From Barthelona sp. PCE (taxonomy: Eukaryota), in the NCBI GenBank assembly GCA_040285745.1, contig JAUFOR010000008.1, positions 186,001 through 250,000 on the forward strand: a stretch of DNA of 64,000 nucleotides. Direction: 5' to 3'. The translations under genes and the position numbers were made by a program. The notes below the pieces were generated by a model. That model saw only the letters and a list, made by a program, of their open reading frames with translations. It had not been told where the DNA came from and made no database searches. This document shows positions 5,412 through 64,000 of the stretch, one piece after another (position 1 is the first letter of the stretch; each line of letters begins with the position of its first letter).

Positions 5412-7667
5412 ATGGATGGGTTTTACGAGCAAATAGATCAGGTTGAATCTCTCTCCGGTGTGCGTTTGCCCTGGACGGTTTTCCCAAGCACAAAAAATAA
5501 TGCAAAGAATCTCCCCATACCAGTAAGTGCATTCTACACACCAATGAAGGATGTTGACGGGCTTTTACTGGCGAAAACAAGACCTTGCATTTGCTTAAAG
5601 TGTGGTGCATATCTCAATCCTTTTTGTGCTGGAGATCTCCAGCAAAGACGGTGGATTTGTCAGTTCTGCAACACGGGAAACTCCCTCCCCGAGGAGATTG
5701 TGCAAAATCCAAGTGTATTAGATGCCAAACACATGACATGTGAGTATGTTCTAGGGAATAACGCGCATACACCGTTTTACCTCTTTATCATCGATACAAA
5801 CCAGCCGCTGAATATCTTGGACCAGCTCAAGACAACCATATTGCGTACACTTGACTACATGCCACCAGAAGCCCAGATTGGACTCATAACTTACTCTGAA
5901 AACGTGCTTTTGTGGGATTTGCAGTCAGAAGGGCTCCCACGATCCTATGTCTTTGATGGCGAGGAGATCCCGAGCGACGGTGATTTCGAGGGGACGCTGA
6001 GATCTTTGTTTGATATAGCTCAATCATTCATCAGACCTGTTGGTGACTGTGTGTTTGCATTTAGTGAACTGTTGGATGCAGTCTTCCGCAGCGTCCCCAG
6101 TTCGCAATTGGGCAACTACTGTAGAAGTTGTGCAGGTGTCGCACTTGGAATTGCGCATAAAATCGTGGAGAAGTTATGTCATGGACAGACTGGACGAGTT
6201 CTGCTTTTCAACGCGAATCCAATCACCCACGGCAAGGGTCTCTTCGCGGAAATCGACAAACGCAAGACGTTGCGCACACATCTTGATCTGAAGGAGCATA
6301 ACGCCCCACACACAAAGAGTTCAAGAAATTTCTTCCGCCAACTTGCTGATAAATTTTGCGATATAGGTGTTTCTGTTGACGTGTGGTCGGCTTCGGTGCG
6401 CCAGACAGGTGTTTATGAAATGGTTGAGGTCTTTGAGCGCACGGGAGGACATTGTTTCATGTGTGATCGGTTCACTGACGATATTTTCACATCTTCTCTG
6501 CTTAAATCGTTCGCCAGGGCCGGGGGAATAGGCCATAGTGGACTTTACGAGGATGTAGAGGCGCAATCAATAGTTGGAATCCCGTGCGTCTTCAACGCTA
6601 AGATCAAAGTACAGACCCCACCTTATATAGTCTTTAAGGGGCTTGTTGACAACAGAGAGCCAACTGAGAAGGATGGAAACGAGTTCTTTGTTGGACAGCT
6701 CACTCCCAATTCAACATTTGCATTTGTTTTCGACATTGACGAGTCTCTTGGTACACAGAATTTCAGCGCGCGGCCCTACAGGTATATTCAATTTACAACT
6801 CAGTACACACACCCTAACGGGAAAATGGTACTGCGTGTTACTACAATTGCTGTTAACTGGAATGTGAGCAACAATATGAACGAGCTCGTTAAAGGCTTTG
6901 ACCAGGAGGCAGCCGCTGTTCTGTTGGCAAGAATGGCAACAAAGATTATGCGGGAGACAGCAGAGCACGATGAGGCACGAATATACGTGGATCGCACTGT
7001 TGTTGATCTATGCTCCCTTTTTAGCTCTTACACCATCAATGTTCCCAGTTCAGTCACGTTCCCGCAGACCATGACCAATTTCCCACAGTTCTCCTTCTAC
7101 CTCCGACGTAACGTTCTACTCAGTAACTTCAACGAAAGCCCCGATGAAACAACTTACAAGCGTTATATCTTTGAGCGCTGCACTGTTAACGATAGTCTCG
7201 TCATCATCCAGCCGACGCTGACTAAATACTCGATGGATTCTACGGAATCTGTACTGCTTGATATCAGCAGTCTGCAGCGAGAGTGTTTATTGGTATTGGA
7301 TACCTACTATACAGTGTTATTGCACTATGATGAAGAGTTCAAAAACTGGAGAGCTATGAACTACCACGAGGAAGAGGGTTTCAGCTGGTTCGGAGATCTG
7401 ATTGCTAGTGCTGATGAACACGCCAGATCTATATTAAATGAGCGCTGGCCGACACCAGTGCTACACTTCACACACCCCAATCACAGCCAAATGCGCTTTC
7501 TGAAGAGTATCCTGAACCCTCCAAGTCTTGCTGTTCGTGGACAAACGCGCCCAACTGGAAACTCACAGAACATGCCATTCACTTCCAAGGGGAACCCGTT
7601 AAAGACGTCGGACGTCAGCTACAGCGACTTTATGGAATCACTCAGGGGTCTCATAACAAAGCCATGA
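5412..7667 (+). CDS. SEC23: COPII coat subunit Sec23
   Basis: GVRLPW, zinc finger CxxCGAYLNPFC...WICQFC, GFDQEAAAVL, FNESPDET, SDVS. Confidence 0.95.
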   Translation: MDGFYEQIDQVESLSGVRLPWTVFPSTKNNAKNLPIPVSAFYTPMKDVDGLLLAKTRPCICLKCGAYLNPFCAGDLQQRRWICQFCNTGNSLPEEIVQNPSVLDAKHMTCEYVLGNNAHTPFYLFIIDTNQPLNILDQLKTTILRTLDYMPPEAQIGLITYSENVLLWDLQSEGLPRSYVFDGEEIPSDGDFEGTLRSLFDIAQSFIRPVGDCVFAFSELLDAVFRSVPSSQLGNYCRSCAGVALGIAHKIVEKLCHGQTGRVLLFNANPITHGKGLFAEIDKRKTLRTHLDLKEHNAPHTKSSRNFFRQLADKFCDIGVSVDVWSASVRQTGVYEMVEVFERTGGHCFMCDRFTDDIFTSSLLKSFARAGGIGHSGLYEDVEAQSIVGIPCVFNAKIKVQTPPYIVFKGLVDNREPTEKDGNEFFVGQLTPNSTFAFVFDIDESLGTQNFSARPYRYIQFTTQYTHPNGKMVLRVTTIAVNWNVSNNMNELVKGFDQEAAAVLLARMATKIMRETAEHDEARIYVDRTVVDLCSLFSSYTINVPSSVTFPQTMTNFPQFSFYLRRNVLLSNFNESPDETTYKRYIFERCTVNDSLVIIQPTLTKYSMDSTESVLLDISSLQRECLLVLDTYYTVLLHYDEEFKNWRAMNYHEEEGFSWFGDLIASADEHARSILNERWPTPVLHFTHPNHSQMRFLKSILNPPSLAVRGQTRPTGNSQNMPFTSKGNPLKTSDVSYSDFMESLRGLITKP

Positions 7668-14390: not shown

Positions 14391-15398
14391 ATGAACCAAA
14401 CCCCAAGAATGAGTATATTCGTTCTTACATGTCTTTCAATGCTTGTATTTTCGTATTCGTGTGATTACGGATCTGCCGGTCCAGTCGACTCTGTTTCTGT
14501 TGGTGGGTCAAATTGTATGAAGTTCAATTTCTGGAATTTTAACTCCTATACCTCAAAAACAATGACTTTTAATCATTTGACTACTTCTACATCCAATCAT
14601 GTTGTATTACGCATGACAAGCATAGACCTTAACGTCCAGTCTAACTCTTACTCATACACAAACAGTGAGTGCTCAACTTCATCAAGCTATATCTACTTTG
14701 ACTATGGTAAGCGTCTTTGTGGTACCCCAGGAACGTTCTATGTCATTGATCCTTCCTCTCTGACTTTCAGAACTAATGGCCGCTCCACATCTAAATTTTA
14801 CATGTATTACACCATCGTCGAAGCTTCCGACGTATACAACACCAGTTCTAAATACGGACCTGTTGTGGATACCCCCTGGGGTATGGTCAACACCGTCGAC
14901 ATGGCCATGATGGATCAGTTCGTTACAGACAAGACCTCAGAAGAAACCGGCTTCATTGTTATCATTATTGTTCTCGTTGTCATTGTTGTCGCCGCCTTTA
15001 TGGTCGCTACACGCGTTCTTGTTAAGAAGGGTTACCTCATCCGCACCGGTTCTAATCGCCGTGGTGGTAACACATACACTTGTAATCCGGATAAGCCTTG
15101 TTGTGGTGGTGGTAGTGGTAGCGGATCTGGTTTTGTTGGCAACGTTGGACCCGCACCAGGTGGCGTTTCTTCAGCTACTCCCTTTGGTGGTCAACCAATG
15201 ATGCAACCTTCCATGCAACCTAACCCTATGATGCAGCCCAACCCTATGATGCAACCTAACCCTATGATGCAACCCAACCCTATGATGCAGCCTAACCCTA
15301 TGATGCAACCCACAATGCAGCCTGCTATGCAGCCTATGATGCAGCCTATGCCCACATATTCTCAAACTACTCCAGGATATAACCCAGGTACATATTAA
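14391..15398 (+). CDS. Type I membrane protein with CUB-like ectodomain and MMQPNP-repeat tail
   Basis: Signal peptide, RLCG...LTFRTN, one TM helix, Gly/Pro/Gln-rich tail. Confidence 0.7.
   Translation: MNQTPRMSIFVLTCLSMLVFSYSCDYGSAGPVDSVSVGGSNCMKFNFWNFNSYTSKTMTFNHLTTSTSNHVVLRMTSIDLNVQSNSYSYTNSECSTSSSYIYFDYGKRLCGTPGTFYVIDPSSLTFRTNGRSTSKFYMYYTIVEASDVYNTSSKYGPVVDTPWGMVNTVDMAMMDQFVTDKTSEETGFIVIIIVLVVIVVAAFMVATRVLVKKGYLIRTGSNRRGGNTYTCNPDKPCCGGGSGSGSGFVGNVGPAPGGVSSATPFGGQPMMQPSMQPNPMMQPNPMMQPNPMMQPNPMMQPNPMMQPTMQPAMQPMMQPMPTYSQTTPGYNPGTY
15201..15353 (+). repeat. Coding 18-bp tandem repeat (MMQPNP)
   Basis: ATGATGCARCCYAACCCT repeated directly. Confidence 0.9.
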
Positions 15399-30035: not shown

Positions 30036-30438
30036 AAAAAAAAACGTAGTAAAAATAAGATAATACTTTTTGGTCAATTTTACAAGAACTAATCCACTGG
30101 ATGTGAATAAATTTTGTTGTTTCAGCAATTTTAAACAAACCAATCCAGTGACAGCATCACCGATTCTATGATATTGATTCTGATCAAATATCGGTTATAT
30201 AAATGCACAAGATACGATAAACGTTAATATTGAAGCAACTAGAAGTGATGATGTGTTGATCAGCTCACAATCCAATGAGAAACACTCAATCTTTTCCTTC
30301 TCCTGTGAAGCAATAAAATAAAGCGCATTGTGATTCACAAATGCGTAAAAAACCACACATAATCGACAGATGTTAAGTTTTAAAAAGAGGCCATGTTTAA
30401 CATTTTTCTTCTCATATCAACGAACTTTGGGAATCATA

Positions 30439-32253
30439 ATGTTTGTATTCGAGAATTCATTCGAAGTAGCACTCAAGCTTGGTGGTATTTACACAGTTTT
30501 AAGAAGCAAAGTACCTGCACAGACTGCGGAACTTGGTGATAACTATTGTCTTGTTGGACAATACGAGGACGCCCCACACGAGATCGAGTTCGATGCCTGT
30601 GAAGCTGGTCCTGTCTGGCTCAACACGGCACTTGAAGATTTCAAAAAAACATACGGAATTGATTATGCTATCGGTAAATGGTTGATCACTGGTCGCCCCC
30701 TTGCAGTTCTTCTCCAGATCAAGAACAACATTAACCTTGACGAACTCAAAACAAGACTATACGAGCAACACAAATTGGAAACCCCAGAAACTGGTGTCGA
30801 TCCTCTCACAGACAAGGTAGTGATCTTCGGTGAGACGTTGCACCTCTTCTACCAAATCGTAATGAAGCACGCTCCAATGGACGTAGTAGCCCATTTCCAC
30901 GAGTGGATGACAGCCTCTTGTATGTGTGACCTGGCTCGTTTCGCACACCCCAAGCTCAAGACCGTCTTCACGACACACGCAACAATGATGTCTCGCTACC
31001 TCTGCGTTGCACGCGGACTTGACTTCTACATCAACCGTATTTTACACGCACATGATGAATACGACTGGGTCGATGATGCAAAGGAGTTCGGCATATACCC
31101 GCGTGTTCTCATCGAGTACAAAGCTGCGCATGCATGCAACGTATTCACAACTGTTTCGGAAATCACAGGAAAGGAGGCTCGTGTTGTCTTACACAGGCAA
31201 CCTGATTTCTTGCTCCCGAACGGTCTCAACATTTCAAAGTTCGAGATTCCGCACCATTTGCAGAACCTTCATCAGGAGAACAAGCACAAACTGCAAAAAT
31301 TCTGCACTTCGCATTTCTTCCCTTCGTATTCGTTTGATCTCGACAAGACCATGTTCTTTTTTACCTCTGGCCGCTTTGAGCCCCAAAACAAAGGATTTGA
31401 CTTCTGTATAGAATCAATGGCTCGTCTCAACTACCAAATGCAAGCTAATAACATCGATAAGACTGTTGTTTTCTTCATCGTCACTCGTACCCCCACAGAA
31501 AACGTGCTGCCCGACCTCCTCGAGCAGCGTGCTCTTTCTGATCAGATCGAAGAAACACTGAAGGATATTGGTGGACAAATATCAACCTCATTGTATGATC
31601 GTGTAATCCACGGCAGTCCTCTCTGTGACGATGGGTGCGGCAAGGGAAGCACCATTGCTGTCGAAAACCATATCTCAGAGACGAGTTGGCTGAAGTTAAG
31701 GAGATTACGTCATGCGTTCAACCGTGATGAACTACCGCCTGTAACCACTCATCGTCTTGTCAATGATAATGACGAGATCATCGAACAGATTCGCAAATGT
31801 CAGTTATTCAACAACGAGCATGATAAAGTCAAAATTATCTATCATCCAGATTTCATTAACAGTGCTTCACCGCTTTTCCAACTCGACTACTCCGACTTCG
31901 TCCGTGGATGCCACATGGGAATCTTCCCCTCCGCATATGAGCCGTGGGGACTCACACCTCCTGAGTGCGTTGTGTCATCAGTCCCATGCATCACCTCAGA
32001 TCTAGCTGGATTTGGTGCGTGGATGAAGAAATCATGCCCTGAACACGATAAATACGGTATCTATATCGCAGAGAGAAGCCGCCTTGGTGATGAAAAGGCA
32101 ATCGACCAAATGGTGGAAATTTTGATGAGATTCCTCTCACAAGATAGATGGGCACGTATCAAGCAACGTAACAAAGCTTTCGAGGCCTCCAAACTTTTCG
32201 GTTGGAATAGGCTTGTTAAGGACTATCTCCGTGCGTATGGTATGATCCAGTAA
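30439..32253 (+). CDS. Glycogen synthase, GT3 family
   Basis: EVALKLGGIYTV, HFHEW, FTTHAT, SGRFEPQNKG, PSAYEPWGLTP. Confidence 0.93.
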   Translation: MFVFENSFEVALKLGGIYTVLRSKVPAQTAELGDNYCLVGQYEDAPHEIEFDACEAGPVWLNTALEDFKKTYGIDYAIGKWLITGRPLAVLLQIKNNINLDELKTRLYEQHKLETPETGVDPLTDKVVIFGETLHLFYQIVMKHAPMDVVAHFHEWMTASCMCDLARFAHPKLKTVFTTHATMMSRYLCVARGLDFYINRILHAHDEYDWVDDAKEFGIYPRVLIEYKAAHACNVFTTVSEITGKEARVVLHRQPDFLLPNGLNISKFEIPHHLQNLHQENKHKLQKFCTSHFFPSYSFDLDKTMFFFTSGRFEPQNKGFDFCIESMARLNYQMQANNIDKTVVFFIVTRTPTENVLPDLLEQRALSDQIEETLKDIGGQISTSLYDRVIHGSPLCDDGCGKGSTIAVENHISETSWLKLRRLRHAFNRDELPPVTTHRLVNDNDEIIEQIRKCQLFNNEHDKVKIIYHPDFINSASPLFQLDYSDFVRGCHMGIFPSAYEPWGLTPPECVVSSVPCITSDLAGFGAWMKKSCPEHDKYGIYIAERSRLGDEKAIDQMVEILMRFLSQDRWARIKQRNKAFEASKLFGWNRLVKDYLRAYGMIQ

Positions 32254-53987: not shown

Positions 53988-54063
53988 TAGCTGTATATAT
54001 AAATTATTACGAAAAGGGGTGAAAAACAATAAAACAAAAAATGCTGAAATTTTATTGACAATA

Positions 54064-55533
54064 TTAGTAACCATAAAAACGAGTGTTGCTTTGGAACAGG
54101 TTGGAATTATTATAACGACGGTTGTTTGTAGTACGACGTCTGGTTTGTTGTTGGAAACCTTGCTGGAAACCTTGAGCCATGCCACCCATAGCACTCATCA
54201 TCGAACCCATCATCGAACCAAGACCTGAGGCAAGTGTGTTGCTGCCATGCATAACGTTAGGATGCTGAGGCTGTTGAATTTGGAATGAAGTACCCTGCTG
54301 ATACTGGGGTTGTTGGTACTGGGGTTGTTGAGGTTGCTGGTATTGGGGTTGAGGCTGGTACTGGGGTTGAGGCTGGTACTGGGGTTGAGGCTGGTATTGA
54401 GGTTGAGGCTGTTGGTACTGAGGCTGGGGTTGGGGTTGATACTGAGGTTGAGTAGGATATTGAGGTTGAGTAGAATATTGAGGTTGTCCCATTGGTTGTC
54501 CCATGGGGTTGGGCATAAAACCTCCATCATCAGGCATGGTGAATCCCTGGTTCGACTGGGTCTGAGTGTTTCCACACTGAGCATTGAGGCTCCACATGTC
54601 AACAAAACCACCGTTCTGCATCATTGATGAAAAAGCATTCTCCATTGCCATAGTGGTGTTGTTTTTGGGCTTTTGCATGAGGGGATGGATCGGAACGGAA
54701 TTCTGAGGACCACGCTCGGTTGTAGTACCTTGACGAGGGCAAGAGAACTTGGGAACGGTGTCAAGGCTTGCCTGGAATGTAATCTGACCAACAGGGTTGT
54801 TTGCTTTATCAACAACGCTAATGTTGTACTGCTTGGGTTGTGTGGGGTCGGCAGGGATCTGATCAAACGTGAAAGTGGCCGTACCAAACTTTGAATCACT
54901 TATCATACCCTTGTCCATGATATCAATAACGAAGGGACGTGACTCCAGTTCTCTGAACGTGGTTGCGATCGTCAAAGGATTGATATATTGGAATTGGTAC
55001 ATTTGATAGTTACCAACCTTCTCAGATTCGACTGATACATTATCTTCCTGCTCACGATGAACCTTGAGGTAAAGATTGACAGCACGAGCAAGTTGGACAG
55101 CAACGTTAGATATACCAACGCGAGTCTCAGTGATAGCTTCAGCGATACACTTGAAACTGACACGACCCTGAACAAACTGAGCTTGGTGGTCTTGGGGCAT
55201 AAAGAGAGCCATAGATCTTTGCTCAGGAGCAAGGAGCATGGCCTCGACGGTGAGGACGCTCATTCCAATCATCTGATCCTTACCAAACTCCTGGTCAAGA
55301 CACACAATCTTAAAGAAAACTTCACCAATACGTTCTTCATCAACTTCAAACTCAAAAACGAACTTGTCGTCAAATTGAGCGGACAAACAACGCTTAATTG
55401 TCTTGGTCTTAAACTCTTGCAGACCGTTCTTTGCTTCTACAGAAAAAACAACATAAGGGTCACTTGTACCATCCTCATTACGAGGAGCAAGGTTAGAAAC
55501 AGAAATATTATCAAGGAAACAACGTACACGCAT
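54064..55533 (-). CDS. Tandem C2-domain protein with PQYQ-repeat tail
   Basis: DGTSDPYV, second C2 domain, QPQY repeats. Confidence 0.85.
   Translation of the reverse strand: MRVRCFLDNISVSNLAPRNEDGTSDPYVVFSVEAKNGLQEFKTKTIKRCLSAQFDDKFVFEFEVDEERIGEVFFKIVCLDQEFGKDQMIGMSVLTVEAMLLAPEQRSMALFMPQDHQAQFVQGRVSFKCIAEAITETRVGISNVAVQLARAVNLYLKVHREQEDNVSVESEKVGNYQMYQFQYINPLTIATTFRELESRPFVIDIMDKGMISDSKFGTATFTFDQIPADPTQPKQYNISVVDKANNPVGQITFQASLDTVPKFSCPRQGTTTERGPQNSVPIHPLMQKPKNNTTMAMENAFSSMMQNGGFVDMWSLNAQCGNTQTQSNQGFTMPDDGGFMPNPMGQPMGQPQYSTQPQYPTQPQYQPQPQPQYQQPQPQYQPQPQYQPQPQYQPQPQYQQPQQPQYQQPQYQQGTSFQIQQPQHPNVMHGSNTLASGLGSMMGSMMSAMGGMAQGFQQGFQQQTRRRTTNNRRYNNSNLFQSNTRFYGY
54295..54500 (-). repeat. Coding Gln/Pro/Tyr tandem repeat
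   Basis: CAACCCCAGTACCAGCCT-like 18-bp units. Confidence 0.85.
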
Positions 55534-55935
55534 AATAATGTTAATTAGATGAGGTTAGAAAAGGGTATTCAACGTATACTTGCTTCAAAGACATTTTCTT
55601 GTCAGCTACAGCAGATTTGTATCATATACTTGTCATTTCATGGATTTCATCGGTTGAAATCGGTTCTATTCTTGGTAAACTAAAAAATATTTGATTTCAA
55701 CAATTTTGCAATACACTCACTCGCAACCCCCTTGTAATAATGAAACAGCCATGATGGCGAGATGCAATTAGTTCTTTTGAAATAATAAAGAGGAATGGGC
55801 TTTATAGGAGTCAAGCACCATGTAAGAACTTTTACAGTACTCTATTGATTCAGAATATATTTTTTCAGTCAATTTTCAAGCCTCTTATCCATAAATTGTG
55901 AAAAATTGTGAAAAAAAAAAAATAGAAAATTTTAG

Positions 55936-56031
55936 GAAGCTATATCCATTGCAGGATAAATCCGAGGGTAAGACAATCAATTTTGAGGTTTCAACACGAT
56001 TTGTAAGATTCGGTATGCGCTTGCTAGCTTC
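55936..56031. ncRNA. Putative structured small RNA (island 0)
   Basis: Closing stem GAAGCTA/TAGCTTC; hairpin TATCC-ATTGCA-GGATA; AT-rich flanks. Confidence 0.35.
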
Positions 56032-56126
56032 AGAAATGATCAATAAAAAATTTCAACCGAACTTTATCATTAAAAAACCCACTCAAATTTTTCTAAATGG
56101 TACGCTTGTGAATAACTCATCCATGT

Positions 56127-56270
56127 TTATCCTCTATCCTACACCTTGGATGGTTTACTGAAGTGACAGCCTGCATGTTGGGAGGGCAGCAGAACTAAAC
56201 TGGGTACGGATCACGATACTGCCGCAGACTACGTATCCAGAGAGCCATGATTAACTGCTAACTATCTCAT
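56127..56270 (+). ncRNA. Unidentified structured RNA, copy 1
   Basis: Paralogue of 57691-57850 with a covarying stem. Confidence 0.55.
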
Positions 56271-56727
56271 TATTAAGAAAATATAATAAAAATATAATAA
56301 AAAACTTACCTGCGTTATAGGAAAAAAAAAATTCTTTACAGAAGTTATTAATATCCATTTAAATCATAACAAAAGATACATGACGTGGTGTTTAAACATA
56401 ATCTTGATTCACCATAGTTCCTTCCCTTACATGCAGCGGTAGTAAAGCCTGAAACTTTGATGATTTACAGAGATCTAAGTTTGGGTATGGTGCCACGAAG
56501 GGGTCACCGAGGTGGGTGTGCGGAAGTCCACAAATCCGACTCTCGATACTAATAAATAGGTATAAAATATACAAAAGAAAATAGGTAACCTTGATATAAG
56601 TGAACTAAGCTTGTAAATTTACTTCGGAGTTAGACACTTGTACGGGAGTTGCGAGCTCCCTCGAGTGCTATGCTTGCACTGAGAATTGTTCTAGAGCCCC
56701 TTTTTTTTAAAATAAAAGGGGAGAAAG

Positions 56728-56882
56728 AAATGATGCAAGTACTCACAGAGTACAAGAGGGAAGATCGCGTGTCTACTCCTCCAGTAGATTTACTCCTACG
56801 AAATAGCGTGTTATTCACAAGCGTGCCGCTTCGTGTTCCATTCTCTAATTGTTCATCAATCTGGGATCTTGAGGATCATTTT
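56728..56882 (+). ncRNA. Putative structured RNA ending in a T-run
   Basis: Terminal stem AAATGAT/ATCATTT; hairpins GTACTC/GAGTAC and TCTACT/AGTAGA. Confidence 0.35.
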
Positions 56883-57092
56883 TTTTTAAAAATAAAATTT
56901 TTTTAATAATAATAGATATATAAAATATTAGTAGTAATCATTTTTAATAAGGAGCTATTGCTTTTTTAGATACTAAAAACGTTATTACTATTTATTAAAA
57001 AAATATTTTCTTTAAGCAGGCAAACTTTCGAAATCAATATTTTGGTGACTTAAGAGATAATTACTAAATATTCGTTGAAAAAATTCCGAATA

Positions 57093-57173
57093 GCATGTAT
57101 GCGATAGCGGTTATTCGGTGCGCCTAGAAAGCGTGTGCCTCCGGGCTCCTAGGTTCAAATCCTAGTACATGCG
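57093..57173 (+). tRNA. tRNA-Ser(AGA)
   Basis: Acceptor GCATGTA/TACATGC, anticodon loop CT-AGA-AA, variable arm, CTAGG-TTCAAAT-CCTAG, TTTTT terminator. Confidence 0.93.
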
Positions 57174-57245
57174 TTTTTGCCAATTCAGAATTGTTTCCAC
57201 AAATAATTTAGAAACTTAAACATAATAATTGTTGATTTCCGTACA

Positions 57246-57316
57246 ACGCCTGTAGTTTAGTGGTAAAACTCATGGTTGCCATCCATGTGCCGGGGGTTCG
57301 ATTCCCCCCGGGTGTA
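57246..57316 (+). tRNA. tRNA-Gly(GCC)
   Basis: Acceptor ACGCCTG/CGGGTGT, CATGG-TTGCCAT-CCATG, GGGGG-TTCGATT-CCCCC, T-run. Confidence 0.93.
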
Positions 57317-57484
57317 CTTTTTTAGCTCACTTTTTGCGTGGTCTATCTTGGTCTGCCTTGGTCTAAAATAATTCAATGCAATCTTTTGTAGTCTGTGCAT
57401 ATTTTTATTAGTAATTCAACTTTTTTGAATGTCAACCAAATCATTACGACACATTCTTATTGTGCCAAAAAAACTATGCAAAAA

Positions 57485-57557
57485 TGAATGTGAGAAGAAT
57501 CGAACTCCCGGCCTCGTCGATGCTAACGACGCGCTACTACCACTGAGCTACACACTC
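57485..57557 (-). tRNA. tRNA-Ala(AGC), full length with a 1-nt D-arm insertion
   Basis: Acceptor GAGTGTG/CACATTC with G3:U70, CGTCG-TTAGCAT-CGACG, TTCGATT loop, TTTT after. Confidence 0.9.
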
Positions 57558-57690
57558 CAAACTCCAAATTGTTAGTTTGACGGAAAAGTTCAAGCCAAAG
57601 TGTCAAGTACCGTATTGGTTATTCACAATTTCCGGTCAGTTTTCTCCCCCATCTCACGTAATTAGAGGTTAAGTATATCGAAAATAGTGG

Positions 57691-57850
57691 TTATCCTCTA
57701 TCCTACACCTTGGATGGTTTACTGAAGTGACAGCCTGCATGTTGGGAGGGCAGACAGAACGAACCGTTAGACAGGACGGGTACGGATCAATCAAGATACC
57801 GCCGCACGCTACGTACCCGTAGAGCCATGATTAGTGGCTAACTGTCTCGC
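57691..57850 (+). ncRNA. Unidentified structured RNA, copy 2
   Basis: First ~60 nt identical to copy 1; perfect ACGGGTACG/CGTACCCGT stem. Confidence 0.55.
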
Positions 57851-57892
57851 TATTGAGAAAATATGATGAAATTTTTTGTAAAATTTCTTGAT

Positions 57893-58015
57893 AAAACTTA
57901 CCTGCGTTCTTTCTGCACTAGGATATAATTTATGCAGAAGATGATGAAAGACTTTCTTGGATAATCCAGCACAGAATGTGTGCGGAGTAGTTTTTTCCAA
58001 GCTCACGGAAAAACA
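57893..58015 (+). ncRNA. Possible divergent U1 snRNA
   Basis: ACTTACCTG followed by hairpin TTCTGCA/TGCAGAA, possible helix GCGTT/AATGT and a U-rich tract. Confidence 0.3.
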
Positions 58016-58212
58016 ACAAAAAGTTTCGAAGATTATGTTGAAATTTAACTTTCTGGTTTTTTGTCTTTTTTAATTTTTTGAATTCAGGAAAGAAATCGAA
58101 AAGCAGTTACTCGAGTCCGAGTAACTTAGCTAGGATTATTCTTTAACTCTCACTATCAGTGTATGTCATCTAGGTTTCGGGTGCATCAAGATTCCGATTG
58201 CCATCAACTACA

Positions 58213-61200
58213 TATAATCAAACGGTAGAGACCCACAGTTAGTTAAAAATTACTAATTAAACTTTTTTTTTTTTCAATAAATTTTACAACCCCTAAATTA
58301 ACTTATACAGCTTAATCATATACGCACACACAGTTACTGTACTATATATAACTCAAAAGCACTACTATTCTTTACTAATCGTTCATAGTTTTCTATGGGC
58401 ATTAGTAGCAAATGGCCTCCACCAAAACTTTTGAAAAGGTAGCAGTGCTCCCGGCCTCGTCGATGCTAACGACGCGCTCTACCACTGAGCTACACACTCC
58501 AAACTCCAAATTGTTAGTTTGACGGAAAAGTTCAAGCCAAAGTGTCAAGTACCGTATTGGTTATTCACAATTTCCGGTCAGTTTTCTCCCCCATCTCACG
58601 TAATTAGAGGTTAAGTATATCGAAAATAGTGGTATAATCAAACGGTAGAGACCCACAGTTAGTTAAAAATTACTAATTAAACTTTTTTTTTTTTCAATGA
58701 ATTTTACAACCCCTAAATTAACTTATACAGCTTAATCATATACGCACACACAGTTACTGTACTATATATAACTCAAAAGCACTACTATTCTTTACTAATC
58801 GTTCATAGTTTTCTATGGGCATTAGTAGCAAATGGCCTCCACCAAAACTTTTGAAAAGGTAGCAGTGCTCCCGGCCTCGTCGATGCTAACGACGCGCTCT
58901 ACCACTGAGCTACACACTCCAAACTCCAAATTGTTAGTTTGACGGAAAAGTTCAAGCCAAAGTGTCAAGTACCGTATTGGTTATTCACAATTTCCGGTCA
59001 GTTTTCTCCCCCATCTCACGTAATTAGAGGTTAAGTATACTGAAAATAGTGGAGTGATCAAACGATAGAGACCCACAGTTAGTTAAAAATTACTAATTAA
59101 ACTTTTTTTTTTTTCAATGAATTTTACAACCCCTAAATTAACTTATACAGCTTAATCATATACGCACACACAGTTACTGTACTATATATAACTCAAAAGC
59201 ACTACTATTCTTTACTAATCGTTCATAGTTTTCTATGGGCATTAGTAGCAAATGGCCTCCACCAAAACTTTTGAAAAGGTAGCAGTGCTCCCGGCCTCGT
59301 CGATGCTAACGACGCGCTCTACCACTGAGCTACACACTCCAAACTCCAAATTGTTAGTTTGACGGAAAAGTTCAAGCCAAAGTGTCAAGTACCGTATTGG
59401 TTATTCACAATTTCCGGTCAGTTTTCTCCCCATCTCACGTAATTAGAGGTTAAGTATATCGAAAATAGTGGTATAATCAAACGGTAGAGACCCACAGTTA
59501 GTTAAAAATTACTAATTAAACTTTTTTTTTTTCAATAAATTTTACAACCCCCTAAATTAACTTATACAGCTTAATCATATACGCACACACAGTTACTGTA
59601 CTATATATAACTCAAAAGCACTACTATTCTTTACTAATCGTTCATAGTTTTCTATGGGCATTAGTAGCAAATGGCCTCCACCAAAACTTTTGAAAGGTAG
59701 CAGTGCTCCCGGCCTCGTCGATGCTAACGACGCGCTACTACCACTGAGCTACACACTCAAACTCCAAATTGTTAGTTTGACGGAAAAGTTCAAGCCAAAG
59801 TGTCAAGTACCGTATTGGTTATTCACAATTTCCGGTCAGTTTTCTCCCCCATCTCACGTAATTAGAGGTTAAGTATATCGAAAATAGTGGTATAATCAAA
59901 CGGTAGAGACCCACAGTTAGTTAAAAATTACTAATTAAACTTTTTTTTTTTCAATAAATTTTACAACCCCTAAATTAACTTATACAGCTTAATCATATAC
60001 GCACACACAGTTACTGTACTATATATAACCAAAAAAGCACTACTATTCTTTACTAATCGTTCATAGTTTTCTATGGGCATTAGTAGCAAATGGCCTCCAC
60101 CAAAACTTTTTGAAAAGGTAGCAGTGCTCCCGGCCTCGTCGATGCTAACGACGCGCTCTACCACTGAGCTACACACTCCAAACTCCAAATTGTTAGTTTG
60201 ACGGAAAAGTTCAAGCCAAAGTGTCAAGTACCGTATTGGTTATTCACAATTTCCGGTCAGTTTTCTCCCCCATCTCACGTAATTAGAGGTTAAGTATATC
60301 GAAAATAGTGGTATAATCAAACGGTAGAGACCCACAGTTAGTTAAAAATTACTAATTAAACTTTTTTTTTTTTCAATGAATTTTACAACCCCTAAATTAA
60401 CTTATACAGCTTAATCATATACGCACACACAGTTACTGTACTATATATAACTCAAAAGCACTACTATTCTTTACTAATCGTTCATAGTTTTCTATGGGCA
60501 TTAGTAGCAAATGGCCTCCACCAAAACTTTTGAAAAGGTAGCAGTGCTCCCGGCCTCGTCGATGCTAACGACGCGCTCTACCACTGAGCTACACACTCCA
60601 AACTCCAAATTGTTAGTTTGACGGAAAAGTTCAAGCCAAAGTGTCAAGTACCGTATTGGTTATTCACAATTTCCGGTCAGTTTTCTCCCCATCTCACGTA
60701 ATTAGAGGTTAAGTATATCGAAAATAGTGGTATAATCAAACGGTAGAGACCCACAGTTAGTTAAAAATTACTAATTAAACTTTTTTTTTTCAATAAATTT
60801 TACAACCCCTAAATTAACTTATACAGCTTAATCATATACGCACACACAGTTACTGTACTATATATAACTCAAAAGCACTACTATTCTTTTACTAATCGTT
60901 CATAGTTTTCTATGGGCATTAGTAGCAAATGGCCTCCACCAAAACTTTTGAAAAGGTAGCAGTGCTCCCGGCCTCGTCGATGCTAACGACGCGCTCTACC
61001 ACTGAGCTACACACTCCAAACTCCAAATTGTTAGTTTGACGGAAAAGTTCAAGCCAAAGTGTCAAGTACCGTATTGGTTATTCACAATTTCCGGTCAGTT
61101 TTCTCCCCCATCTCACGTAATTAGAGGTTAAGTATATCGAAAATAGTGGTATAATCAAACGGTAGAGACCCACAGTTAGTTAAAAATTACTAATTAAACT

Positions 61201-64000
61201 TTTTTTTTTTTCAATGAATTTTACAACCCCTAAATTAACTTATACAGCTTAATCATATACGCACACACAGTTACTGTACTATATATAACTCAAAAGCACT
61301 ACTATTCTTTTACTAATCGTTCATAGTTTTCTATGGGCATTAGTAGCAAATGGCCTCCACCAAAACTTTTTGAAAGGTAGCAGTGCTCCCGGCCTCGTCG
61401 ATGCTAACGACGCGCTCTACCACTGAGCTACACACTCCAAACTACAAATTGTTAGTTTGACGGAAAAGTTCAAGCCAAAGTGTCAAGTACCGTATTGGTT
61501 ATTCACAATTTCCGGTCAGTTTTCTCCCCCATCTCACGTAATTAGAGGTTAAGTATATCGAAAATAGTGGTATAATCAAACGGTAGAGACCCACAGTTAG
61601 TTAAAAATTACTAATTAAACTTTTTTTTTTTTCAATGAATTTTACAACCCCTAAATTAACTTATACAGCTTAATCATATACGCACACACAGTTACTGTAC
61701 TATATATAACTCAAAAGCACTACTATTCTTTACTAATCGTTCATAGTTTTCTATGGGCATTAGTAGCAAATGGCCTCCACCAAAACTTTTGAAAGGTAGC
61801 AGTGCTCCCGGCCTCGTCGATGCTAACGACGCGCTCTACCACTGAGCTACACACTCCAAACTCCAAATTGTTAGTTTGACGGAAAAGTTCAAGCCAAAGT
61901 GTCAAGTACCGTATTGGTTATTCACAATTTCCGGTCAGTTTTCTCCCCCATCTCACGTAATTAGAGGTTAAGTATATCGAAAATAGTGGTATAATCAAAC
62001 GGTAGAGACCCACAGTTAGTTAAAAATTACTAATTAAACTTTTTTTTTTTTCAATAAATTTTACAACCCCTAAATTAACTTATACAGCTTAATCATATAC
62101 GCACACACAGTTACTGTACTATATATAACTCAAAAGCACTACTATTCTTTACTAATCGTTCATAGTTTTCTATGGGCATTAGTAGCAAATGGCCTCCACC
62201 AAAACTTTTGAAAAGGTAGCAGTGCTCCCGGCCTCGTCGATGCTAACGACGCGCTACTACCACTGAGCTACACACTCCAAACTCCAAATTGTTAGTTTGA
62301 CGGAAAAGTTCAAGCCAAAGTGTCAAGTACCGTATTGGTTATTCACAATTTCCGGTCAGTTTTCTCCCCCATCTCACGTAATTAGAGGTTAAGTATATCG
62401 AAAATAGTGGTATAATCAAACGGTAGAGACCCACAGTTAGTTAAAAATTACTAATTAAACTTTTTTTTTTTTCAATAAATTTTACAACCCCTAAATTAAC
62501 TTATACAGCTTAATCATATACGCACACACAGTTACTGTACTATATATAACTCAAAAGCACTACTATTCTTTACTAATCGTTCATAGTTTTCTATGGGCAT
62601 TAGTAGCAAATGGCCTCCACCAAAACTTTTGAAAAGGTAGCAGTGCTCCCGGCCTCGTCGATGCTAACGACGCGCTCTACCACTGAGCTACACACTCCAA
62701 ACTCCAAATTGTTAGTTTGACGGAAAAGTTCAAGCCAAAGTGTCAAGTACCGTATTGGTTATTCACAATTTCCGGTCAGTTTTTCTCCCCCATCTCACGT
62801 AATTAGAGGTTAAGTATATCGAAAATAGTGGTATAATCAAACGGTAGAGACCCACAGTTAGTTAAAAATTACTAATTAAACTTTTTTTTTTTTCAATAAA
62901 TTTTACAACCCCTAAATTAACTTATACAGCTTAATCATATACGCACACACAGTTACTGTACTATATATAACTCAAAAGCACTACTATTCTTTACTAATCG
63001 TTCATAGTTTTCTATGGGCATTAGTAGCAAATGGCCTCCACCAAAACTTTTGAAAAGGTAGCAGTGCTCCCGGCCTCGTCGATGCTAACGACGCGCTCTA
63101 CCACTGAGCTACACACTCCAAACTCCAAATTGTTAGTTTGACGGAAAAGTTCAAGCCAAAGTGTCAAGTACCGTATTGGTTATTCACAATTTCCGGTCAG
63201 TTTTCTCCCCCATCTCACGTAATTAGAGGTTAAGTATATCGAAAATAGTGGTATAATCAAACGGTAGAGACCCACAGTTAGTTAAAAATTACTAATTAAA
63301 CTTTTTTTTTTTTCAATAAATTTTACAACCCCTAAATTAACTTATACAGCTTAATCATATACGCACACACAGTTACTGTACTATATATAACTCAAAAGCA
63401 CTACTATTCTTTACTAATCGTTCATAGTTTTCTATGGGCATTAGTAGCAAATGGCCTCCACCAAAACTTTTTTGAAAAGGTAGCAGTGCTCCCGGCCTCG
63501 TCGATGCTAACGACGCGCTCTACCACTGAGCTACACACTCCAAACTCCAAATTGTTAGTTTGACGGAAAAGTTCAAGCCAAAGTGTCAAGTACCGTATTG
63601 GTTATTCACAATTTCCGGTCAGTTTTCTCCCCATCTCACGTAATTAGAGGTTAAGTATATCGAAAATAGTGGTATAATCAAACGGTAGAGACCCACAGTT
63701 AGTTAAAAATTACTAATTAAACTTTTTTTTTTTTTCAATAAATTTTACAACCCCTAAATTAACTTATACAGCTTAATCATATACGCACACACAGTTACTG
63801 TACTATATATAACTCAAAAGCACTACTATTCTTTACTAATCGTTCATAGTTTTCTATGGGCATTAGTAGCAAATGGCCTCCACCAAAACTTTTGAAAAGG
63901 TAGCAGTGCTCCCGGCCTCGTCGATGCTAACGACGCGCTCTACCACTGAGCTACACACTCCAAACTCCAAATTGTTAGTTTGACGGAAAAGTTCAAGCCA
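58213..64000. repeat. Tandem array of ~420-bp units (about 13.8 copies, runs off the window)
   Basis: Near-identical units; AGCAGTGCTCCCGG recurs 14 times between 58441 and 63902. Confidence 0.98.
58448..58499 (-). pseudogene. 3'-truncated tRNA-Ala(AGC), first of 14 array copies
   Basis: 52 nt matching tRNA-Ala through the 5' T-stem; T-loop and 3' acceptor strand replaced by CACTGCTACCTTTT. Confidence 0.9.

What the first reader, a model, noticed from the sequence alone, without database searches (positions are those of the whole stretch)
58213..64000. Tandem array of tRNA-Ala copies truncated exactly at the T-loop
Seen: 14 units each carry the first 52 nt of tRNA-Ala(AGC) on the minus strand, with D-arm/A box and anticodon arm intact. 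Each stops just before TTCGA, so the B box and 3' acceptor strand are lost, and continues CACTGCTACC-TTTT. Known: Entamoeba has tandem arrays of intact tRNA genes, proposed to have structural roles at chromosome ends. Inference: this is a tRNA-derived satellite (subtelomeric or centromeric) or a multicopy source of a ~65-nt tRNA-like RNA.
Basis: partly seen in the sequence, partly recalled or inferred. Interest (0 to 1): 0.85.

Follow-up and report, generated by a model that had tools for sequence, protein, structure and literature searches.

The report
Young tandem repeat seeded inside tRNA-Ala
A 420-bp stretch of DNA that begins inside a tRNA-Ala gene has been copied head-to-tail at least 14 times right beside the intact gene it came from, so it looks like a newborn local repeat carrying a dead tRNA piece, not a tRNA-based satellite or a source of tRNA-like RNA.

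Summary
From 58213 to the window end there are 13.8 head-to-tail units of 419-421 bp. Each carries the first 52 nt of tRNA-Ala(AGC) on the minus strand, cut exactly before the T-loop/B box (14 of 14 units).

An intact tRNA-Ala(AGC) gene lies 650 bp to the left (57485-57557). Each unit also carries about 134 nt of that gene's own upstream flank (0 substitutions in 187 nt), plus 235 bp (B) that normally lies 522 bp further on. The layout is tRNA-3'|tRNA-5'-A-U-B|(tRNA-5'-A-B)n. This is the footprint of a DNA-level tandem duplication with one breakpoint inside the gene, then loss of U and amplification.

The fragments are dead as tRNA genes. They have no B box and no acceptor 3' strand, score 26.2 bits against a threshold of 29, and are followed only by T3-T4 runs, whereas native genes end in T5-T7.

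The host is Barthelona sp. PCE, by the source name of an identical protein. Array length, chromosomal position and transcription could not be tested. Interest is modest.

The parts
58213..64000 (.). Tandem array, 13.8 units of 419-421 bp, truncated by the window end. Each unit is B (235 bp) followed by A (52-nt tRNA-Ala 5' fragment plus about 134 nt of its upstream flank), with 1 nt shared at the A|B junction.
   Evidence: TRF; unit spacing and consensus; BLAST of segments; junctions
58448..58499 (-). First of 14 truncated tRNA-Ala(AGC) copies (nt 1-52: acceptor 5' strand, D-arm with A box, anticodon arm, 5' strand of the T-stem). The others start on the + strand at 58868, 59288, 59706, 60127, 60547, 60965, 61386, 61805, 62225, 62646, 63067, 63489 and 63909.
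   Evidence: Rfam tRNA 26.2 bits against a gathering score of 29; not called by ARAGORN
57485..57557 (-). Intact progenitor tRNA-Ala(AGC) gene with G3:U70, a T-arm/B box and a T5 terminator. It carries one extra D-loop base compared with 12 of 14 array copies.
   Evidence: ARAGORN; Rfam 52.1 bits; trailer
57505..57691 (-). Copy 0 of segment A: tRNA nt 1-53 plus 134 nt of upstream flank. It is 100% identical to the unit at 62225 and differs from the other units mainly by the one extra base.
   Evidence: BLAST; alignment
57692..58212 (.). Segment U (about 522 bp, +/-1 nt because of a shared T). It lies between A and B only in copy 0 and is absent from all array units.
58213..58447 (.). First copy of segment B, joined on its left to unique DNA (U) and on its right to tRNA nt 52. 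It has no other copy in the 58 kb outside the array.
57497..57512 (.). Arm of a 16-nt inverted repeat (15 of 16 complementary) with the T-arm of the convergent tRNA-Gly (57289-57304). The array breakpoint 57504|57505 lies in the middle of this arm.
   Evidence: the repeat finder pair I9; junction
57093..57317 (+). Neighbouring single-copy tRNA-Ser(AGA) at 57093-57173 and tRNA-Gly(GCC) at 57246-57317. Both are outside the array and end in T5 and T6.

Best explanation
The array is a young tandem repeat that was born at this locus, and the tRNA piece is a passenger. A stretch of chromosome was duplicated head-to-tail at the DNA level. It ran from inside the tRNA-Ala gene (just before the T-loop/B box), through the gene's upstream flank (A), through a 522-bp segment (U), to the end of segment B. 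That event created the novel junction 'end of B | tRNA nt 52'. A copy lacking U (420 bp) then became the unit that was amplified, presumably by unequal sister-chromatid exchange or replication slippage, to at least 14 copies. Alternatively, U entered copy 0 later.

The truncated tRNA copies cannot act as tRNAs or as normal Pol III genes. The likely reason for the breakpoint position is that Pol III genes are sites of fork stalling and rearrangement. Here the break also lies inside a 16-nt inverted repeat formed by two convergent tRNA T-arms.

Shown: the architecture, the near-identity to the progenitor, and the loss of every 3' tRNA feature. Inferred: the order of events, the recombination mechanism, and the absence of function.
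For: (1) The array abuts an intact tRNA-Ala(AGC) gene.
(2) The units share not only tRNA nt 1-52 but also about 134 nt of non-transcribed upstream flank with that gene. There are 0 substitutions in 187 nt, and one unit is 100% identical. This rules out an RNA-mediated (retroposed) origin.
(3) The leftmost B copy is joined to unique DNA. The only novel junctions are B-end|tRNA-nt52 and A-end|B-start, the latter with 1-3 nt of microhomology. This is the pattern expected of tandem duplication plus one internal indel.
(4) B and A have no other copies in the remaining 58 kb.
(5) Divergence among units is very low, 14 substitutions in 5460 nt.
(6) The fragments lack a B box on the tRNA strand and lack the acceptor 3' strand. 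They score 26.2 bits against a threshold of 29, do not fold as a cloverleaf (z -1.15), and are followed by T3-T4 runs where native genes have T5-T7.
(7) The breakpoint lies inside the inverted repeat between the T-arms of tRNA-Ala and tRNA-Gly.
(8) Rearrangement breakpoints are frequently bounded by tRNA genes in yeasts (abstract of PMC2817429, seen in the listing).
Against: No reads, no whole genome and no related loci could be examined. Copy number, total length, chromosomal position, presence of the unit elsewhere and transcription are therefore all untested.

The array sits in a stretch of at least 8.5 kb without ORFs of 90 aa or more. The published genome averages about 2 kb per gene and is only 4.46% repetitive, so the region may be special.

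Each unit keeps the A box, the complete 134-nt tRNA upstream region and an 11-mer (GTTATTCACAA) that recurs independently near other ncRNA-like sequences. Some promoter activity therefore cannot be excluded.

Near-identity between units could reflect homogenisation or selection rather than youth. Whether U was deleted from the founder unit or inserted into copy 0 is unresolved. Its left edge coincides to the base with the start of a conserved paralogous element, which a random deletion would not predict.
Confidence: 0.7

Rival explanations
1. The array is a structural satellite that marks a centromere or a chromosome end. It would be analogous in role to the Entamoeba tRNA arrays, whatever its local origin.
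For: The array lies in a stretch of at least 8.5 kb without long ORFs in a very compact genome. Its GC content is 36.7%, against 43.2% for the gene-rich part. It lies next to a Pol III gene cluster and 850 bp from a tract of three TGGTCT cores at the 10-bp spacing of the published telomere repeat (the repeat is). Only 2 contig ends of the published assembly carry telomeres, so the other ends may stop in repeats. Entamoeba carries tRNA arrays at one end of every chromosome.
Against: The true telomere repeat is not enriched in the window (3 hits with up to 1 mismatch against 3.48 expected). The unit is visibly derived from the adjacent single-copy DNA. That fits a single local birth better than a genome-wide satellite family. 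No second locus is known, and two exact-match scans of metagenome contigs found nothing. The TGGTCT pattern was designed after it was seen by eye.
Confidence: 0.12
2. The array is a multicopy small-RNA source. Each unit would be transcribed from retained promoter elements (A box plus the 134-nt upstream region). This would give a tRNA-Ala 5'-half-like RNA of about 65 nt on the minus strand, a short RNA on the plus strand running from the A|B junction to the T12 run, or both.
For: The A box TAGCTCAGTGG is intact in every unit. The full upstream flank is retained. The motif GTTATTCACAA occurs in every unit and at two further independent sites in the ncRNA-like cluster, against 0.03 exact matches expected by my own arithmetic and about 2 expected with up to 1 mismatch. 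T4 runs lie at +63 and +73 on the tRNA strand. A T12 run lies about 47 nt into B on the + strand.
Against: There is no B box on the tRNA strand. The only relaxed match, GTTCAAGCC, is on the opposite strand, and I estimate about a 10% chance of such a match. The three native tRNA genes end in T5-T7, while the fragment is followed by T4 in 11 of 14 units and T3 in 3 of 14. The predicted RNA has no acceptor stem and folds no better than shuffles. There is no Rfam family in B at E up to 10.
Confidence: 0.1
3. The array is an assembly artefact: a single or low-copy locus inflated into an array by the long-read assembler.
For: The assembly was built from early Nanopore R9.5 reads with Illumina polishing. 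Most differences between units are homopolymer-length errors. Copy number in tandem repeats is often mis-estimated.
Against: The B-end|tRNA-nt52 junction cannot arise from a single-copy locus without reads that contain it. Units carry distinct substitutions, including an A/G site split 8:5 and a cluster of 6 changes at the boundary between units 2 and 3. Coverage was 66x Nanopore.
Confidence: 0.05
4. The array is a set of tandemly arranged tRNA-derived SINEs or retroposons.
For: On the tRNA strand the unit reads as a tRNA head, about 170 nt of body, then an A12 run. This superficially resembles a SINE.
Against: The 134 nt upstream of the tRNA start is identical to the genomic flank of the intact gene, and a Pol III transcript would not carry that flank. 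There is no B box. There are no dispersed copies in 58 kb and no target-site duplications at the array edge.
Confidence: 0.02

Closest known systems
Entamoeba tRNA gene arrays
   Same: They are head-to-tail arrays with units of a few hundred bp to under 2 kb that contain tRNA sequence. A structural role at chromosome ends has been proposed (passages of PMC2652664). [quoted passage not shown]
   Different: Entamoeba units hold one to five intact tRNA genes, with no clear pseudogenes, and contain nearly all tRNA genes of the genome. Here the arrayed copy is truncated and non-functional, and the three intact tRNA genes are single-copy outside the array. The host is a metamonad, not an amoebozoan.
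Locus-born tandem or segmental duplications with breakpoints at tRNA genes (yeast comparative genomics)
   Same: The array lies next to its single-copy progenitor. The junction joins the end of the duplicated segment to its start with little or no microhomology. One breakpoint is at a tRNA gene. 'Rearrangements are frequently bounded by tRNAs' is stated in the abstract of PMC2817429 (listing).
   Different: In the yeast cases the tRNA genes usually flank the breakpoints. Here the break is inside the gene, at the T-loop. The product has also been amplified to at least 14 copies, not 2-3.
Human 1q23.3 tRNA variable-number tandem repeat
   Same: It is a copy-number-variable tandem array containing tRNA sequence, discussed as a possible boundary element (abstract of PMC4041453, listing).
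   Different: Its unit is 7.3 kb and is described as a tRNA tandem repeat. Only the abstract was seen, so I did not check whether the tRNA genes in the unit are intact. The present unit is 420 bp with only a dead fragment.
tRNA-derived SINEs, and plant satellites proposed to descend from tRNA genes (recalled from memory, not retrieved)
   Same: They are repeated DNA with a tRNA-related 5' part.
   Different: SINEs keep both A and B boxes, spread through RNA and are dispersed. Here the B box is lost, the upstream genomic flank is co-duplicated and the copies are strictly local.

Membership tests
Functional tRNA gene | Complete cloverleaf, with the acceptor 3' strand and T-arm, scoring above the covariance-model threshold | tested here: not met
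   Array copies score 26.2 bits against a gathering score of 29, are not called by ARAGORN, and form no acceptor stem in the fold. The intact gene scores 52.1 bits.
Functional tRNA gene | Internal Pol III promoter with both A box and B box, and a downstream T-run terminator like native genes | tested here: not met
   The A box is present, the B box is absent on the tRNA strand, and the first T5 run is at +251. The T run after the fragment is T4 in 11 of 14 units and T3 in 3 of 14, against T5-T7 for the three native genes. The box consensus sequences were recalled from memory.
Entamoeba-type tRNA gene array | The unit contains at least one intact tRNA gene | tested here: not met
   0 of 14 units hold an intact tRNA.
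Entamoeba-type tRNA gene array | Arrays lie at chromosome ends, and most tRNA genes of the genome are arrayed | not testable with these tools
   No whole genome was held. Within the window, all 3 intact tRNA genes are single-copy and outside the array.
tRNA-derived SINE | RNA-mediated copies that start at tRNA +1, with unrelated upstream flanks, are dispersed and have target-site duplications | tested here: not met
   The upstream 134 nt is identical to the flank of the progenitor gene. There are no dispersed copies in 58 kb and no TSD at the array edge.
Satellite DNA | Head-to-tail array of a unit longer than 100 bp with high homogeneity between units | tested here: met
   13.8 units, period 421, 98% matches; 0.26% substitutions.
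Satellite DNA | Long arrays (tens of kb or more), several loci, and a heterochromatic, centromeric or subtelomeric position | not testable with these tools
   The array runs off the window. No genome or reads were available, and two metagenome scans found nothing.
Local tandem (segmental) duplication | The array adjoins its single-copy progenitor, the novel junction joins the end of the segment to its start, and the copies are near-identical to the progenitor | tested here: met
   The layout is tRNA3'|tRNA5'-A-U-B|(tRNA5'-A-B)n. A0 is 98.4-100% identical to the array copies of A.

The most novel reading that the evidence does not exclude
The 420-bp array is not inert. It would be the chromosome-specific structural repeat (centromere or chromosome-end cap) of one Barthelona chromosome, caught at the moment a satellite is born from a Pol III gene cluster. 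Alternatively or in addition, each unit's retained tRNA upstream region and A box would drive short divergent transcripts, making the array a small-RNA factory in the smallest known free-living eukaryotic genome.
Probability: 0.12. Interest if true: 0.6.

Novelty: new member of a known kind. Interest (0 to 1): 0.3.

Why it matters
As it stands this is a tidy textbook-style example of how a satellite-like array can arise from unique DNA. The progenitor, the founding junction and the amplified unit are all still visible side by side, and one breakpoint lies exactly at the B box of a tRNA gene, inside an inverted repeat formed by two convergent tRNA genes. That is useful for thinking about Pol III genes as fragile sites, and about repeat birth in a genome with only 4.46% repeats. 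It does not open a new kind of biology unless the array proves to be centromeric, terminal or transcribed. It also gives annotators a practical warning. The 14 fragments are not tRNA genes, and the extra D-loop base in the 'intact' gene may be a polishing error caused by multi-mapping reads.

Tried and rejected
Whole-genome search: no genome is held for this window, so I could not look for other arrays or for the array's position on the contig.

Sequencing runs: none was listed for 54000-59100, and no RNA holder was listed. Depth, array length and expression were therefore not examined, and read laying was not used.

Metagenome contigs: exact-match scans with the array junction and with an invariant part of B both found 0 stretches.

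Earlier notes of this scan: none by place and none by sequence.

Rfam: permissive scans of 56000-60000, 57650-58450 and 55550-57000 found nothing credible in B, in U or in the ncRNA-like region. All non-tRNA hits had E of 0.77 or more and scored far below gathering.

tRNA-like fold of the hypothetical 66-nt or 80-nt RNA: rejected.

SINE/retroposon origin: rejected on flank identity. Helitron and LTR readings were considered by eye from the end sequences, which showed no TC...CTRR or TG...CA termini. No tool was run for these.

Coding potential of the unit: no ORF of 90 aa or more, and ORFs differ between units because unit length varies from 419 to 421 bp.

Literature: searches for tRNA-derived satellites and tRNA-pseudogene tandem repeats listed nothing comparable. 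Only titles and abstract starts were seen, plus one reference-list passage of PMC7290008 that proved irrelevant. The main text of the genome paper has 0 occurrences of tRNA and 0 of satellite or centromere. Its three supplement files held as text contain only an unrelated tRNA-ligase line. Supplements not held as text were not seen.

Taxonomy: the first attempts, with Sec23 and glycogen synthase, gave only distant hits.
Full report
OBSERVATION. Tandem Repeats Finder reports a single large array at 58213-64000 with period 421, 13.8 copies, 98% matches and score 11295. Anchoring on a unit-internal motif gives 14 unit starts spaced 419-421 bp apart. The 5' part of tRNA-Ala(AGC) occurs on the minus strand 14 times in the array and once more at 57505. 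In 12 of 14 units it is the same 52-nt string, comprising the acceptor 5' strand, a canonical D-arm with the A box, the anticodon arm and the 5' strand of the T-stem. In 2 of 14 units (59706, 62225) it has one extra D-loop base. All 14 end in ...GGGAG and continue CACTGCTACC, followed by TTTT in 11 of 14 and TTT in 3 of 14. The array runs off the window end, so 14 is a lower bound.

ARAGORN and Rfam find three intact tRNA genes just left of the array: tRNA-Ser(AGA) at 57093-57173 (+), tRNA-Gly(GCC) at 57246-57317 (+) and tRNA-Ala(AGC) at 57485-57557 (-). Alignment and BLAST show that the array unit shares more than the tRNA piece with this tRNA-Ala locus. It shares a continuous 187-nt block (A), made of tRNA nt 1-52/53 plus about 134 nt of the gene's upstream, non-transcribed flank. 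There are no substitutions, and the unit at 62225 is 100% identical. The other 235 bp of the unit (B) first appears at 58213, joined on its left to unique DNA. Between A of the intact locus and this first B lies a segment U of about 522 bp (57692-58212, +/-1 nt because of a shared T) that no array unit contains. Read left to right on the + strand, the locus is tRNA-3'part | tRNA-5'part-A | U | B | (tRNA-5'part-A | B) x at least 13. Neither A nor B has any other copy in the remaining 58 kb.

ORIGIN. This layout is the footprint of a tandem duplication of genomic DNA. The only junction that joins previously non-adjacent DNA to the tRNA is 'end of B | tRNA nt 52', meaning the end of the duplicated segment joined to its start. 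The intact gene is simply copy 0, which keeps its 3' part because the left breakpoint fell inside it. Because the upstream flank was co-duplicated, an RNA-mediated origin (SINE, retroposed tRNA or tRNA fragment) is excluded.

The second junction (A | B, with 1-3 nt of microhomology) requires one more event. Either U was deleted from the founder of the 420-bp unit before amplification, or U was inserted into copy 0 afterwards. I cannot decide between these. Deletion needs no donor. On the other hand, the left edge of U coincides to the base with the start of a conserved element that has a 77%-identical paralogue at 56129-56316. A random deletion would not predict that coincidence, and the same point seems to have been a breakpoint twice.

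Divergence among 13 full units is 14 substitutions and 22 gap columns in 5460 nt. Most gaps are homopolymer-length differences. Such differences are typical residual Nanopore errors where short-read polishing cannot place reads uniquely. The assembly was made from R9.5 Nanopore reads at 66x with Illumina correction (passages of PMC11316075). Real variation exists, including an A/G site split 8:5 among units and a cluster of six changes at the boundary between units 2 and 3. The array is therefore either very young or kept homogeneous.

WHY THERE. The left breakpoint (57504|57505) lies exactly at the start of the T-loop/B box. It is also in the middle of a 16-nt inverted repeat (15 of 16 complementary, 192 nt apart) formed by the T-arms of the convergent tRNA-Gly and tRNA-Ala genes. 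Rearrangement breakpoints are known to be frequently bounded by tRNA genes (abstract of PMC2817429, in the listing). That Pol III complexes stall replication forks is established knowledge which I recall and did not retrieve. Fork stalling or template switching at this point is thus a reasonable mechanism, but it is an inference, not something shown here. Microhomology at the founding junction cannot be assessed, because the right-hand flank of the array lies outside the window.

ARE THE FRAGMENTS ACTIVE? As tRNAs, no. ARAGORN does not call them, and Rfam scores them at 26.2 bits against a gathering score of 29, compared with 52.1 bits for the intact gene. The hypothetical 66-nt RNA forms no acceptor stem and folds no better than shuffles (z -1.15; 28 of 200 shuffles fold as well).

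As Pol III genes, probably not. The A box is intact, but there is no B box on the tRNA strand. The only relaxed match, GTTCAAGCC, is on the opposite strand, and I estimate roughly a 10% chance of such a match. The three native tRNA genes are followed immediately by T5, T5 and T6 runs. The fragment is followed only by T4 (T3 in 3 of 14 units) at +63, T4 at +73, and the first T5 at +251.

What keeps a small probability alive is that every unit retains the whole 134-nt upstream region. That region includes an 11-mer, GTTATTCACAA, which also occurs exactly at two independent sites (56106-56116 on the minus strand and 56810-56820 on the plus strand) in the adjacent ncRNA-like cluster, and nowhere exactly in the 56 kb of genes. 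In addition, a T12 run lies about 47 nt into B on the + strand. No RNA data could be obtained.

HOST AND CONTEXT. The window is densely packed with long intron-free ORFs on both strands. They encode eukaryotic proteins including TMEM17, a LAMA-type phospholipase B and SF3a60. A Sec23 homologue is at most 32% identical to anything in the database. The glycogen synthase is closest to Bacteroidota enzymes, at 42-44% identity. The window's PP2A-A-like protein is 100% identical to an NCBI entry named Barthelona sp. PCE, on a 2,170,504-bp contig. The published genome (passages seen) is 10.2 Mb in 8 contigs, has 40.3% GC, is 4.46% repetitive and encodes 5064 proteins. Its unusual telomere repeat, TATATGGTCT, was seen at only two contig ends. 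The main text has 0 occurrences of tRNA and 0 of satellite or centromere. The three supplement files held as text add nothing.

Against that background, the stretch from 55534 to the window end is unusual. It has no ORF of 90 aa or more and its GC is 36-37%, against 43.2% for the gene-rich part. This is the main reason I keep a 12% reading that the array has a structural role, at a centromere or chromosome end. The true telomere repeat is not enriched in the window (3 hits against 3.48 expected). A tract of three TGGTCT cores at the telomeric 10-bp spacing lies at 57339-57364 (0 of 100 shuffles), but I designed that pattern after seeing it by eye.

COMPARISON WITH KNOWN SYSTEMS. [quoted passage not shown] The present array fails the defining feature of an intact tRNA in the unit, and it belongs to an unrelated organism. 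It resembles those arrays only in being tandem and tRNA-associated. It is not a SINE array. It meets the minimal definition of satellite DNA and all the features of a local tandem duplication beside its progenitor. I therefore file it as a new member of a known kind: a young satellite-like array born by segmental duplication. Its only unusual detail is that one breakpoint cut a tRNA gene at the B box.

VERDICT. Best explanation, at 0.7: a locus-born tandem array with a dead tRNA fragment as passenger. Rivals: structural satellite 0.12, small-RNA source 0.10, assembly artefact 0.05, SINE array 0.02. Interest is 0.3.

Noticed in passing
57691-57912 and 56127-56320 (+): A conserved element of about 216 nt is present twice at 77% identity, with the first 63 nt identical. 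Both copies end in AAAACTTACCTGCG, which matches the U1 snRNA 5' end as I recall it; its reverse complement is a consensus 5' splice site. One copy starts exactly where segment U begins and is divergent from tRNA-Ala, 134 nt away. There is no Rfam hit. The fold z-scores are -1.56 and -0.97, and there is one compensatory pair in an 8-bp stem. It could be an undescribed small RNA gene, a promoter module or an intron.
   Followed up: partly
57339-57364 (+): TGGTCTATCTTGGTCTGCCTTGGTCT contains three TGGTCT cores at 10-bp spacing, 22 nt downstream of tRNA-Gly. This recalls the published Barthelona telomere unit TATATGGTCT. It occurred in 0 of 100 shuffles, but the pattern was chosen after it was seen. 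It may be a degenerate interstitial telomere-like tract or a protein-binding site.
   Followed up: partly
56106-56116 (-), 56810-56820 (+), 57618-57628 (+) and once per array unit: The 11-mer GTTATTCACAA occurs exactly at three independent sites within 1.5 kb of the ncRNA-like cluster. Two of these extend to 18 nt as an inverted pair (pair I7). It has no exact match in the 56 kb of genes. It is a candidate regulatory motif, but its orientation relative to its neighbours is not consistent.
   Followed up: partly
about 56610-56709 and 56757-56888 (+): Two GC-richer stretches that look structured end in T8 and T9 runs, which resemble Pol III terminators. One contains an ACTTCGGAGT hairpin. No Rfam family matched at E up to 10. 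They may be lineage-specific small RNA genes.
   Followed up: partly
57485-57557 (-): The intact tRNA-Ala(AGC) has one extra D-loop base (GGTAGTAGCGC against GGTAGAGCGC in 12 of 14 array copies). This gives a non-standard D-stem pair in the Rfam alignment. It may be real, or it may be a polishing error caused by multi-mapping with the array.
   Followed up: partly
55534-64000: There is no ORF of 90 aa or more across at least 8.5 kb, and GC is 36-37%. The published genome averages about 2 kb per gene.
   Followed up: partly
30370-32253 (+): The best matches of the GT3 glycogen synthase are Bacteroidota and other bacterial proteins at 42-44% identity, not eukaryotic ones. It is a candidate lateral gene transfer.
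   Followed up: no
5412-7667 (+): This Sec23-family protein is only 31-32% identical to any other Sec23. It lacks the gelsolin-like domain (PF00626) that almost all listed relatives carry.
   Followed up: no
15213-15350 and 54302-54486: There are in-frame 18-nt coding repeats inside ORFs. The second set lies in the C2-domain gene next to the gene-free region.
   Followed up: no
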